From Eledone cirrhosa (taxonomy: Eukaryota), in NCBI GenBank assembly GCA_964016885.1, contig OZ024752.1, positions 11,718,001 to 11,782,000 of the forward strand: 64,000 bases of DNA, given 5' to 3'. Numbering within the stretch: position 1 is the first letter of the stretch; every line of letters begins with the position of its first letter. The notes under the pieces were generated by a model that ran no database searches, was not told the origin of the DNA, and was given only the letters and a program-made list of their open reading frames with translations. The translations under genes were made by a program, and so were the position numbers. Positions 1-64,000 of this stretch are shown piece by piece.

Positions 1-768
1 TCGAAAGTATATACTTTCCTTATGAAAATTAACGGCTGAGCAGCCTAATTTGCATATTGAGTGAGTTAAATCGGTCAGGCATACCGAAAACGATAAATTG
101 AAACAAAATGAAAACGAAATTTCATTTCTCACTCTTAGTATGGCACTTACTTAAATGTAAGTATGCATGTATACGTACATACATATATGTATACAGACAT
201 ACAGTAGCATGCACATATATATATATATATATATATACATATATACATACATATGCATACAGGTACACATACATATATGCACGTATCAGTTTAGCGGCGC
301 TTATTATAACGTCGCTTTGTTCGTTTGTAAACAAACTGAACAGCCTGAATTTATGCCATACGGTGTTAAGGCAACCACGTCACCTTTTTGTTCAACACTG
401 ACACAGGAACGATGTACTAGTTTCAAGCTTGTTAGCTATCATCAGCACCGTTTACCCATCTGCCAGATAGTTGAACGTTCGAAAGTATATACTTTCCTTA
501 TGAAAATTAACGGCTGAGCAGCCTAATTTGCATATTGAGTGAGTTAAATCGGTCAGGCATACCGAAAACGATAAATTGAAACAAAATGAAAACGAAATTT
601 CATTTCTCACTCTTAGTATGGCACTTACTTAAATGTAAGTATGCATGTATACGTACATACATATATGTATACAGACATACAGTAGCATGCACATATATAT
701 ATATATATATATATACATATATACATACATATGCATACAGGTACACATACATATATGCACGTATCAGT
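1..768. repeat. Tandem duplication, 478-bp period (about 1.6 copies visible)
   Basis: tcgaaagtatatactttcc... at 1 recurs at 479; ORFs 108..401 and 586..780 start with identical peptides 478 nt apart. Confidence 0.95.
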
Positions 769-1046
769 ATATATATATAAATATATATAAATGATGAATT
801 TTTTAATATAAGGAACTGTTTCTTTGTTTTTATTCATTGTTTTTATTAATTTATATATATATATATGTATATTATATATGTATATTATATTTGATAATTT
901 GTATAATTTTGTATAATTTTGTACATAGATCTGTTGATATGCATACCAATTCTAACACATATATGTCCTAGAAACGATCGTTAAATAATGAACTTTTTTT
1001 GTTTAATATAAGGAACTGTTTCATTGTTTTATTCATTATTTTTTTA

Positions 1047-3325: not shown

Positions 3326-3729
3326 CAGGGGTGTGAAACATATTCCATTGGTGGGCCACTTTTGAACATTGGAACAACTATTAGGGCCAGTCACTGTCAA
3401 AAATGTGTAATCTAATGAAAACCAGTGAATTGAGTCATAAATACATTGTGAATACATTTTTAAACAATAAAGACAAATAACATGAAACTGGGAAATTATA
3501 ACACACATAACCCTCTCAGTGAAGCCCTTTAGTATAGGTCAACTGGGAAATTATAACACACATAACCCTCTCAGTGAAGCCCTTTAGTATAGGTCAACAA
3601 ACAGAAAATTGTATTACGGTTACGAAAAAAATTCTAAATAGGTAAAAATTAAAATCGGTCATCGCGGGCCACTCTGACTGGTCTGGCGAGCCGGATTGTG
3701 GCTCGCAGGTCGCCTGTTGCACGCCCCTG
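3326..3729 (-). mobile_element. hAT-like MITE with two copies of a 55-bp unit
   Basis: Termini caggggtgtgaaaca / tgttgcacgcccctg; gcgggcc subterminal motif; reverse-complement homolog of 49468-50989. Confidence 0.75.
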
Positions 3730-19758: not shown

Positions 19759-20481
19759 TCATCCCTTGAATCGCAAGAATGTTTTGCAAATTTTGAAGGT
19801 GCCAGCTATCGCAGCCATTTGTAGACTATGAATTAGGGAGCTGCGCTCTTTGTCCGCAAATCCAAGTTCAGTCATACTTTGGTCCAAGCAGGTTGGTATA
19901 TAACCCGTAGCACCAATAATGATGGGTATGAAGCTAAAGATGTATCTTGGATACTGGATTTGTAAACTCCTCATCAATGGTCCGTAGATGTCCTCCTTCT
20001 CCTGTATTTTTCTGACAACGTTTACATCAAGTGGGCAGCTGATCTCCACAACAGAACACGTTTTCAATGTGTGGTCCCAAACTACAATATCAGGCCGGTT
20101 GTACTTTAATTTGGTGGCAGTTTTTATTTTCAAGTTCCACCAGTATTCCTTAGTGCCATCTGTCTCAATATATTCTTCCTCGTTTGTTGTTGATTTTGTT
20201 TTCCGAAGTGCGTTCCAGATGGTTCTAGCTATCCCATCGTGTCTCATGGGGGGGTAGTAGCGAGATGACATTCTTTCGCAGCTGGCAACAATGTGGCTTA
20301 CATCCTCGATCTTTGTTTTACATAGCCTACATTTATTGTCAGCTGCTGGCCCTCCTCTTTTGTGCAGCAGATATTTGGTAGGGAGTTCTTGTTCCTGTAT
20401 TGCATAGAGATATCCCTCAAGGTGTGATGTCATAAACTTGTCGGAACTCCATGCCAGGCTTTTTGAGTGGTTTATCCCCTC
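19759..20481 (-). pseudogene. 5'-truncated R4/Dong-clade non-LTR retrotransposon ORF: CCHC knuckle plus restriction-like endonuclease
   Basis: EGYLYAIQEQ, CRLC..H....C, RHD, RPDIVV..EISCP, EKEDIY, IIIGATG in ORF 19759..20433; frame stays open upstream to ~20481, then (TATG)n. Confidence 0.9.
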
Positions 20482-20559
20482 TATGTATGTATGTATGTAT
20501 GTATGTATGTATGTATGTATATGTGTGTGTGTGTGTGTGTGTGTATGTATCTATGTATG

Positions 20560-34354: not shown

Positions 34355-34385
<31 letters not shown>

Positions 34386-34535
34386 CAAATAACAAATAAT
34401 TGTTTTTATCGTCTCCGTTGAACCGGTACTTACTCACACTCTATGCAAATTAGTCTGCCCACTACTAATTTTCATAGAAAAAGCATATAACGATATGTGC
34501 TTTTACGATTCTCTAGAGAGGCCGGAAGATAGGTA

Positions 34536-34580
34536 AATATTGCTGATGAGTTGTAACAACAACGAAACTAGTTCAATATT
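34536..34580 (+). ncRNA. Canonical minimal type I hammerhead ribozyme (family I)
   Basis: AATATTG CTGATGA GTTGT aaca ACAAC GAAAC ta GTT CAATATT: perfect 7-bp stem I, 5-bp stem II with G-C closure, palindromic stem III AACTAGTT, GUU site. Confidence 0.9.
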
Positions 34581-34793
34581 CCTTGTCTGGCTTTCTGGAG
34601 AATAGAGGAGAGGTGTTTCCTCAAAAACCAGTATGACTCTAAAAACCGGTTTGTCTGTGTTTACATACAGAATAGCTGGCCACTCACAGTAAAGTGACCA
34701 GTGAAAAAACTTGGTACACCTACATATGTATACGTGTGTGTATTCATATACATACTAGTATTTCAGTATACATATATGGATGTACATCTTTAA

Positions 34794-34840
<47 letters not shown>

Positions 34841-42778: not shown

Positions 42779-42914
42779 GTGTGTATATATAACGGCGATG
42801 AATTAGTTTTGCGAGGTTTTTTATATGAAGTCGTGTGTCGAAACAAATATTGTTATACTTGGGGAGGGTCATATTTGTGTAATAACATTGCCAGAATTAA
42901 TAACAGAACACACT

Positions 42915-43232
42915 CACTGTAAAACTAGAAACGTAGTCTATAGCATAAGATGTACAGAGGGTGCTTGCAGAAACATGACAACAACATACATAGGCGAGAC
43001 AGCTCGTAGCATAGGTGAAAGGATAGACCAACACTGGGAGGAACTAAAAGGACGAAAAACGGTTCAGTACTATACGAACATGCCAGACAACAACACGACG
43101 GTAATATAGACAACATAGAAATTAGAATAAATATCTAAACATAGAAATGACCCAGCAGATAGGCAAATCAGAGAGGCCAGTGAAATAGAACTTAGCAGGC
43201 CAAAGCTGAACAGAAAAAATGAATGGAATAAC
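42915..43232 (+). pseudogene. GIY-YIG (Uri) endonuclease remnant of Penelope-like type, frameshifted
   Basis: CKTRNVVYSIRC...YIGETARSIGERIDQH, then in shifted frames SVLYEHARQQHDG and RQIREASEIELSRPKLNRKNEW. Confidence 0.88.
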
Positions 43233-49467: not shown

Positions 49468-50989
49468 CAGGGACGTGCAACAGGGGGCCCGCGGGCCACA
49501 ATCCGGCCCACCAGACCAGTCAGAGTGGCCCGCGATGACCGTTTTTAATTTTTACCTTGTAGGCTTATTTAGAATTTTGTTCGTAACTGTAAAACAATTT
49601 TCTGTTAGTTGACCTATACTAAAGGGCTTCACTGATAGGGTTGCGTGTGTTATAATTTCCCAGTTGACCTATACTAAAGGGCTTCACTGATAGGGTTGCG
49701 TGTGTTATAATTTCCCAGTTGACCTATACTAAAGGGCTTCACTGATAGGGTTGCGTGTGTTATAATTTCCCAGTTAACCTATACTAAAGGGCTTCACTGA
49801 TAGGGTTGCGTGTGTTATAATTTCCCAGTTGACCTATACTAAAGGGCTTCACTGATAGGGTTATGTGTTATAATTTCCCAGTTGACCTATACTAAAGGGC
49901 TTCACTGATAGGGTTATGTGTGTTATAATTTCCCAGTTGACCTATACTAAAGGGCTTCACTGATAGGGTTATGTGTTATAATTTCCCAGTTGCCTATACT
50001 AAAGGGCTTCACTGATAGGGTTGCGTGTGTTATAATTTCCCAGTTGACCTATACTAAAGGGCTTCACTGATAGGGTTATGTGTGTTACAATTTCCCAGTT
50101 GACCTATACTAAAGGGCTTCACTGATAGGGTTGCGTGTGTTATAATTTCCCAGTTGACCTATACTAAAGGGCTTCACTGATAGGGTTATGTGTGTTATAA
50201 TTTCCCAGTTGACCTATACTAAAGGGCTTCACTGATAGGGTTGCGTGTGTTATAATTTCCCAGTTGACCTATACTAAAGGGCTTCACTGATAGGGTTGCG
50301 TGTGTTATAATTTCCCAGTTGACCTATACTAAAGGGCTTCACTGATAGGGTTGCGTGTGTTATAATTTCCCAGTTGACCTATACTAAAGGGCTTCACTGA
50401 TAGGGTTGCGTGTGTTATAATTTCCCAGTTGACCTATACTAAAGGGCTTCACTGATAGGGCTATGTGTGTTATAATTTCCCAGTTGACCTATACTAAAGG
50501 GCTTCACTGATAGGGCTATGTGTGTCATAATTTCCCAGTTGACCTATACTAAAGGGCTTCACTGATTGGGCTATGTGTGTTATAATTTCCCAGTTGACCT
50601 ATACTAAAGGGCTTCACTGATAGGGCTATGTGTGTTATAATTTCCCAGTTGACCTATACTAAAGGGCTTCACTGATAGGGCTATGTGTGTTATAATTTCC
50701 CAGTTGACCTATACTAAAGGGCTTCACTGATAGGGTTATGTGTGTTATAATTTCCCAGTTCCATGTTATGGAAAGAAGTTGTGGTGAATCTTTGGAATAG
50801 AGCTAAATAAATATTAATGGCCCTAATAGTTGTTCTGATAGGATTGTGTGTGTTATAATTTCCCAGTTCCATGTTATGGAAAGAAGTTGTGGTGCATCTT
50901 TGGAATAGAGCTAAATAAATATTAATGGCCCTAATAGTTGTTCCAATGTTCAAAAGTGACCTGCCAATGGAACATGTTGCACACTCCTG
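49468..50989 (+). mobile_element. hAT-like MITE expanded by an internal satellite
   Basis: cagggacgtgcaaca / tgttgcacactcctg; homolog of 3326-3729. Confidence 0.8.
49608..50760. repeat. 55-bp satellite, ~21 copies
   Basis: gttgacctatactaaagggcttcactgatagggttgcgtgtgttataatttccca in tandem. Confidence 0.98.
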
Positions 50990-63490: not shown

Positions 63491-63601
63491 TTATATTGAA
63501 AATTAGTCGAAAGACCATAGACAATGTATATCATATTCGAAAGAGAACAGTTAAAACATAAAGAAAACAAAAGGAGGGAATTCTTTGAATTAGTTTTAGA
63601 A

Positions 63602-64000
63602 TTTTCTACATTATCTAGAAACACTAATATAGGTTTACTGTACAAGAAACAGCTTTTCTACATTATCTAGAAACACTAATATAGGTTTACTGTACAACAA
63701 ACAGCTTTTCTACATTATCTAGAAACACTAATGTAGGTTTACTGTACAAGAAACAGCTTTTCTACATTATCTAGAAACACTAATATAGGTTTACTGTACA
63801 ACAAACAGCTTTTCTACATTATCTAGAAACACTAATATAGGTTTACTGTACAACAAACAGCTTTTCTACATTATCTAGAAACACTAATATAGGTTTACTG
63901 TACAAGAAACAGCTTTTCTACATTATCTAGAAACTCTAATGTAGGTTTACTGTACAACAAACAGCTTTTCTACATTATCTGGAAACACTAATATAGGTTT
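63602..64000. repeat. 52-bp satellite, >7 copies, runs off the window
   Basis: ttttctacattatctagaaacactaatataggtttactgtacaagaaacagc in tandem. Confidence 0.97.

What the first reader, a model, noticed from the sequence alone, without database searches (positions are those of the whole stretch)
34536..34580. Textbook-perfect solitary hammerhead
Seen: AATATTG-CTGATGA-GTTGT aaca ACAAC-GAAAC ta GTT-CAATATT with no mismatch in any stem or core base. It is not in a foldback and has no second copy in the window. It is the best candidate for an active ribozyme here, with predicted cleavage after 34573. Stem III is only 2 bp as a monomer but self-complementary, so dimer activity is expected (inference).
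Basis: partly seen in the sequence, partly recalled or inferred. Interest (0 to 1): 0.7.

Follow-up and report, generated by a model that had tools for sequence, protein, structure and literature searches.

The report
Truncated copy of hammerhead retrozyme family
This hammerhead ribozyme motif is one of more than 5,000 identical copies inside a 467-base non-coding repeat spread through this animal genome, mostly as mirror-image pairs of arms with two fixed ends, likely pasted in by Penelope-type jumping-gene enzymes copying a probably circular RNA; the copy here is a sub-unit fragment predicted to be nearly inactive on its own.

Summary
The motif is real and beyond chance (Rfam HH9 E 4.8e-8; 1 equal hit in 1,120 null windows), but not solitary. 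Its 31-nt core has 5,142 exact copies genome-wide, in a 467-bp non-coding unit forming tandem arrays: a metazoan non-LTR retrozyme. The window copy (34379-34797) is a sub-monomer insertion in (TA)n: a 15-nt inverted arm plus a 397-nt arm. Family insertions are back-to-back arms ending at two fixed sites about 70 nt apart: of 49 loci with an inverted arm, 45 end at site A and none at B. Both arms share one haplotype (0.47% apart, against 4.4% between loci), and most cross the cleavage site. Coding Penelope-like elements in the same genome show this footprint too. Best reading: Penelope-driven priming from both strands of one break, probably on an RNA circle. Helix III is 1 bp plus a palindromic tetraloop and the triplet is GUU; folding puts the monomer 7.6 and the dimer 1.8 kcal/mol from the active form. 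Dimer dependence is textbook. No RNA run or helper was found. The scan noted this family and architecture before on other DNA of this genome.

The parts
34525..34596 (+). Type I hammerhead including upper stem I and the 4x3 internal loop (34533-34536 opposite 34580-34582)
   Evidence: Rfam HH9 alignment, E 4.8e-8; 0 of 15 core positions polymorphic against 94 of 452 other unit positions over 93 loci; compensatory changes in stems I and II
34567..34573 (+). Palindromic helix III (ACTAGT) and U17; predicted cleavage after 34573; forms a 6-bp helix only between two tandem copies
   Evidence: cleavage site inferred from hammerhead numbering, not measured
34400..34797 (+). Main arm of the insertion: unit positions 69-467 of the 467-bp retrozyme, identical to the reference unit except a 2-nt deletion; ends at fixed site A
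34379..34393 (-). Short inverted arm, unit positions 64-78, ending at fixed site B; followed by 6 duplicated filler bases (34394-34399)
   Evidence: site B seen at 2,058 exact junctions genome-wide and as loose ends in 12 contigs of run X1
34355..34378 (.). (TA)n target, left part
34798..34838 (.). (TA)n target, right part
34441..34491 (+). Hairpin holding an octamer-like motif (34443-34450), conserved in the sister family, then a TATA-like box (34483-34491); possible internal promoter, untested
   Evidence: the hairpin also holds 8 of 9 rare both-arm A>G changes
1..771 (-). Sister family (478-bp unit, 63% identical), hammerhead core at 445-439; the array runs 391 bases past the window's left end and holds a second hammerhead there

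Best explanation
The motif is the type I hammerhead of a young 467-bp non-coding repeat with thousands of genomic copies (a non-LTR retrozyme), and the window holds a truncated single insertion that is predicted to be nearly inactive alone and was likely made by Penelope-type enzymes. Steps: (1, inferred) tandem arrays are transcribed. (2, predicted) neighbouring hammerheads pair through the palindromic helix III and cut unit-length RNAs, incompletely because of the weak helix and the GUU site. (3, inferred from other animals) the units are ligated into circles. (4, inferred from the footprint) a Penelope-like RT/GIY-YIG protein cuts both strands of a (TA)n target and primes two cDNAs at two fixed sites, A and B, about 70 nt apart and flanking a 29-nt hairpin: the Penelope 'tail'. 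(5, inferred) each RT runs a variable distance, often several times round the template. (6, shown as DNA) the two products are joined back to back. In the window, the A arm is 397 nt and stops at unit position 69; the B arm is 15 nt.
For: 5,142 exact core copies plus 4,248 matches to a pattern dominated by a subfamily with a compensatory stem II pair. 467-bp tandem arrays, one of them with 9 and about 30 units per arm, nearly all identical. 60 loci were picked by site B; 1 was mis-cut and 3 ran past the fetched stretch. Of the other 56, 49 have an inverted arm: 45 end at site A (40 by alignment, 5 short arms read by eye), 3 end elsewhere, 1 runs out of view, 0 end at B; 7 have no inverted arm. 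The sister family, 63% identical, ends at the homologous two sites. RT+GIY-YIG elements in the same genome (L118, L122, L127) show the same two-armed, two-end insertions in (TA)n, with tails of about 60 and 50 nt. One locus outside a microsatellite has a target duplication of about 13 bp. The two arms differ by a median 0.47% against 4.43% between loci (55 two-armed loci). 34 of 43 A arms and 46 of 58 B arms cross the cleavage site. Two- or three-unit periodic variant patterns appear in 3 of 11 arrays, in B243b on both arms. The A arm is longer than the B arm in 20 of 44 loci, which argues against simple fold-back copying. In vitro, a Penelope protein cuts and extends both strands from two RT start sites that define the tail (PMC11167929).
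Against: No autonomous element sharing sequence with this unit was found among the 50 GIY-YIG loci examined, of 150 scored and 10,597 candidates, so the helper is unnamed. Circularity is not shown: long uncleaved linear transcripts from homogeneous arrays, or later array expansion plus gene conversion between arms, could give shared haplotypes. The partner arm is strictly the nearest sequence in only 20 of 55 loci. Inner ends of A arms are mildly enriched just 3' of the cleavage site (8 of 44 in a window chosen after looking, p 0.02), which suggests that some templates were linear cut RNAs. Matching inner ends of the two arms are not significant once hairpin-joined loci are removed (8 of 38, p 0.11). 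The A>G excess is not significant overall (9 against 4 T>C, p 0.18). In one study only 1 of 9 frog retrozyme dimers cleaved in vitro (10.64898/2026.07.22.740005). The Rfam score is below the gathering threshold.
Confidence: 0.8

Rival explanations
1. Same family and same Penelope-type double priming, but the templates are linear (uncleaved multimers or cut monomers); long arrays arise afterwards by unequal crossover, with gene conversion keeping the two arms alike.
For: Unequal crossover is the model offered in 10.64898/2026.07.22.740005. Ribozyme cleavage was not needed for insertion in vitro (PMC11167929). The period-3 pattern in only one arm of C56 could be later duplication. Mild pile-up of inner ends near the cleavage site.
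Against: Locus-specific haplotypes are carried by every unit of both arms, including in arrays of 7+13 and 9+30 units that show almost no other change. Older loci keep unit-private mutations, so conversion is not fast. Linear copying alone can only shorten arrays.
Confidence: 0.3
2. The unit is merely the pseudo-LTR of an unfound autonomous Penelope-like element, and the window copy is an extreme 5' truncation of that element.
For: Tail, inverted 5' arm and microsatellite target are all features of coding Penelope-like elements (PMC8557442).
Against: In about 90 loci examined, arms continue upstream into further units, never into a coding frame. The one long ORF between opposed copies is an unrelated endonuclease+RT LINE-type frame.
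Confidence: 0.08
3. A solitary, host-domesticated ribozyme like the amniote intronic HH9/HH10 that processes a host transcript.
For: The best Rfam match is HH9; single copy at this site.
Against: Thousands of identical copies; the insertion is essentially unmutated and sits in a microsatellite; helix III is too weak for a monomer; no host gene was seen in the ORF list.
Confidence: 0.02

Closest known systems
Metazoan non-LTR retrozymes (PMC7229834, passages and parts 2-4 of 6 read; bioRxiv 10.64898/2026.07.22.740005, parts 1-3 of 5 read, supplements closed)
   Same: Non-coding tandem unit of a few hundred bp, low GC (35.5%), one type I hammerhead per unit, thousands of copies, strongly self-paired circular fold (z -7.7, 40 shuffles). 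The 1-bp helix III with palindromic tetraloop resembles axolotl HHR_Amex1; the sister family's mismatch at the base of stem II resembles HHR_Amex2.
   Different: Unit of 467 bp, slightly above the 150-450 bp range given there. Insertions as two opposed arms with two fixed ends are not described in the parts read ('inverted' 0 hits in PMC7229834). RNA and cleavage were shown there, not here.
Penelope-like elements: tail and tandem/inverted insertions (PMC8557442, passages; PMC11167929, parts 1-2 of 4)
   Same: Inverted 5'-truncated arm, tail at one end only, AT-rich or (TA)n target, two RT start sites.
   Different: No ORF; tail about 70 nt rather than 30-40; both arms can hold many units; full-size hammerhead with loop II and stem I bulge instead of the minimal form.
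Rfam Hammerhead_HH9 (RF02275)
   Same: Type I topology, 6-bp lower stem I, 4x3 internal loop, 4-bp stem II with 6-nt loop.
   Different: 37.7 bits against a gathering score of 52; helix III lacks 5 model positions; repeat-borne rather than single-copy.

Membership tests
Type I hammerhead ribozyme | Core CUGANGA / GAAA / UH with three helices, helix I open | tested here: met
   core invariant at family level
Type I hammerhead ribozyme | Helices supported by covariation | tested here: met
   6 of 11 pairs change on both sides, 94.5% of cells paired, slid controls 21-46%. The 15 distinct rows come from two related families, so independent events are few.
Type I hammerhead ribozyme | Self-cleavage after NUH | not testable with these tools
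   folding only
Rfam HH9 | Score at or above 52 bits | tested here: not met
   37.7 bits; not filed as HH9
Non-LTR retrozyme | Short non-coding tandem repeat with a type I hammerhead in each unit, many loci | tested here: met
   The window copy alone is a sub-monomer derivative and would not pass the two-unit 'active' rule of 10.64898/2026.07.22.740005.
Non-LTR retrozyme | No LTR/PBS/PPT; target duplication larger than 4 bp when visible | tested here: met
   (one clear duplication of about 13 bp; most are hidden in (TA)n). PBS and PPT were not searched for explicitly.
Non-LTR retrozyme | Expressed as linear and circular unit-length RNA | not testable with these tools
   no run on record as RNA was available; the contigs laid cannot tell a circle from a tandem array
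Non-autonomous Penelope-like element | Tail (two fixed 3' ends), inverted 5' arm, microsatellite bias | tested here: met
   same pattern in coding elements
Non-autonomous Penelope-like element | Sequence shared with the terminal repeat of an autonomous partner | tested here: inconclusive
   none among 50 GIY-YIG loci examined of 10,597 candidates

The most novel reading that the evidence does not exclude
Retrozyme arrays are born multimeric: two Penelope reverse transcriptases, primed from both strands of one break at two fixed sites, run round the same small RNA circle (monomer, sometimes dimer or trimer, occasionally A-to-I edited). The window copy, whose long arm stops within 5 nt of where the short arm ends, would be a snapshot of the two polymerases meeting on one template.
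Probability: 0.45. Interest if true: 0.7.

Novelty: new member of a known kind. Interest (0 to 1): 0.45.

Why it matters
The hammerhead itself is ordinary for an animal genome. The family is useful because the mobilisation of animal retrozymes by Penelope-like proteins through circular RNA is proposed in the papers read but not shown there. This young family gives exact RT start sites, a target, natural GUU/GUC alleles and candidate helper proteins in the same genome, so the route can be tested in the in vitro system of PMC11167929. It would also explain satellite-like arrays arising in one step rather than by crossover.

Tried and rejected
No RNA holder listed; this says nothing about expression. 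Four runs of unrecorded kind were laid: all show the 467-base go-back joint, and one 497-base contig in X4 closes on itself, but contigs cannot separate a circle from a tandem array. The 1,040-aa ORF between opposed copies in L063 is an endonuclease+RT LINE-type frame, not the helper. A search for minimal-stem relatives (104 hits, control 20) returned mostly sister-family deletion variants, with no helper frame joined to them in the 25 loci fetched. A DNA search with the sister family returned nothing although the window holds it, so it is uninformative. GUU against GUC did not differ in insertion length (26 against 29 loci, p 0.29). Fold-back copying of one arm was rejected. miRNA-family Rfam hits in the window are microsatellite or foldback artefacts below gathering scores. 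That GUU is the slowest NUH triplet, and that newt satellite 2 uses an snRNA-type promoter with an octamer, are recalled; searches did not confirm either. A sequence look-up in earlier findings was empty.

Full report
Observation. The sequence at 34536-34580 is as written. A descriptor scan finds it as the strongest of 6 hammerhead-like hits in the window, and a motif of equal strictness arose once in 1,120 Markov-simulated windows. Rfam aligns 34525-34596 to HH9 at 37.7 bits, E 4.8e-8, under the curated 52. Helix III is one pair closing a CUAG tetraloop, and the triplet is GUU.

It is not solitary. The window lies at G000:C12:11718001-11782000 in a 3.0-Gb genome. The 31-nt core occurs 5,142 times exactly (control 0). 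A second pattern, dominated by a subfamily with a compensatory stem II pair, gives 4,248 more. The unit is 467 bp, non-coding and tandemly repeated. Over 93 loci, 0 of 15 core positions but 94 of 452 other positions are polymorphic; position 17 is U in 61 and C in 29 of 90 loci. A sister family (478 bp, 63% identical) overlaps the window's left end. Across 15 distinct hammerhead rows, 6 of 11 pairs change on both sides; the rows are related, so this rests on few events.

The window copy. It is unit positions 69-467 on the plus strand (34400-34796, one 2-nt deletion), preceded by a 15-nt inverted piece of positions 64-78 (34379-34393) and 6 duplicated bases, all inside (TA)n. It is shorter than one unit and has one hammerhead. 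Constrained folding puts the active monomer 7.6 kcal/mol above the minimum, because the core mis-pairs with the helix III strand; a tandem dimer is 1.8 (GUU) or 0.4 (GUC) above. The unconstrained dimer pairs the two palindromes. So this copy is likely a dead end, and activity should be sought in arrays. These are nearest-neighbour predictions without tertiary contacts or magnesium.

Insertion anatomy. Arrays are back-to-back arms with two fixed outer ends: site A, 3-10 bases past unit position 467, and site B at position 78, flanking a 29-nt hairpin. Site B joined to (TA)n occurs 2,058 times and appears independently as loose ends in run X1. I fetched 60 of those 2,058, taken from the first 100 listed, all on contig C1. 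One was mis-cut and three ran past the stretch. Of 56, 49 have an inverted arm: 45 end at A (40 by alignment, 5 by eye), 3 elsewhere, 1 out of view, none at B; 7 have none. The sister family ends at the homologous sites. The genome has 10,597 GIY-YIG candidates. Frames with RT plus GIY-YIG and a Cys linker of the kind PMC8557442 gives for Neptune insert the same way, with tails of about 60 and 50 nt. PMC11167929 (parts 1-2 of 4) shows a Penelope protein cutting and extending both strands from two internal start sites that bound the tail; PMC8557442 (passages) describes the inverted arm, the tail and microsatellite bias. The footprint is therefore that of Penelope-type priming.

Template. In 55 two-armed loci the arms differ by a median 0.47% against 4.43% between loci, though the partner is strictly nearest in only 20. 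Every unit of both arms carries the locus haplotype in the arrays inspected, and 3 of 11 show two- or three-unit periodicity, once on both arms. 34 of 43 A arms and 46 of 58 B arms cross the cleavage site, 16 and 21 of them twice or more. This fits RT running round monomer and occasional oligomer circles, as PMC7229834 proposes (parts 2-4 of 6). Against or neutral: inner ends are mildly enriched just past the cleavage site (8 of 44, post hoc p 0.02); matching inner ends drop to p 0.11 without hairpin-joined loci; A>G changes shared by both arms are 9 against 4 T>C (p 0.18), although 8 of the 9 fall in one hairpin, from 4 loci. Linear templates with later expansion, the model of 10.64898/2026.07.22.740005 (parts 1-3 of 5), remain possible. 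I put the circle step near 0.55-0.6 and the family assignment near 0.9.

Comparison and novelty. By repeat structure it is a non-LTR retrozyme; RNA-level criteria could not be tested. It is not an HH9 member. Palindromic helix III and dimer cleavage are described as usual for metazoan type I hammerheads (PMC4209133, passages; PMC7229834). Five literature searches (retrozyme, hammerhead, tandem, circular; Penelope-like, hammerhead, inverted, pLTR, microsatellite; satellite 2, newt, hammerhead, octamer, promoter; octopus, hammerhead ribozyme, Penelope; retrozyme, rolling-circle, reverse transcription, inverted, Penelope) gave no listing that describes two-armed, tailed retrozyme arrays. Most hits were seen only as listings, and the library lacks most subscription papers. 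PMC1636495 was only searched for one term, with no hit. Multicopy non-autonomous Penelope-like elements are already noted in algae (PMC8557442). Earlier notes of this scan report this 467-bp family and the two-armed pattern in other families of this genome; my reading was recorded before that look-up, and those notes are not counted as support.

Verdict. A real but ordinary hammerhead in a probably inactive fragment; a new member of a known kind, whose family makes the proposed retrozyme mobilisation route testable. Interest 0.45.

Noticed in passing
window 6337/6899, 10587/10738, 12290/12787, 35262/35413, 42476/42602, 57110/57137: Six minus-then-plus pairs of hammerhead-like cores from other families, the same back-to-back arrangement; the window has 39 CTGANGA cores in all.
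   Followed up: no
window 1-771 (-) and L248:7610-8772: Sister-family array of 2.3 units plus tail with two hammerheads (GUA triplet, mismatch at the base of stem II), ending at its own site B in (TA)n just left of the window.
   Followed up: partly
window 42900-43052: Fragment 84% identical over 51 aa to a Penelope-like frame of L191.
   Followed up: no
window 19759-20550 (-): 263-aa frame with a zf-RVT match: the 3' end of a non-LTR retrotransposon.
   Followed up: no
L113:2775-6062, L114:2809-5622 (-), L118, L127: Long RT+GIY-YIG frames with a Cys linker; L114 and L124 are 97% identical over 435 aa, so recently active candidate helpers; two-armed insertions with 50-60-nt tails.
   Followed up: partly
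L164, L189, L217, L218, L068 (unit 38-66); L185, L210 (unit 385-456): The two arms are joined through one of the unit's own hairpins more often than expected by eye: template switching or palindrome repair at hairpins.
   Followed up: partly
L065/L066 and L166, unit positions 112-133: Clusters of three A>G changes shared by all units of both arms within one hairpin, as A-to-I editing of the template RNA would leave.
   Followed up: partly
window 49607-50760 and 63550-64000: 55-bp (21 copies) and 52-bp tandem arrays; the 55-bp unit also occurs inverted at 3486-3598.
   Followed up: no
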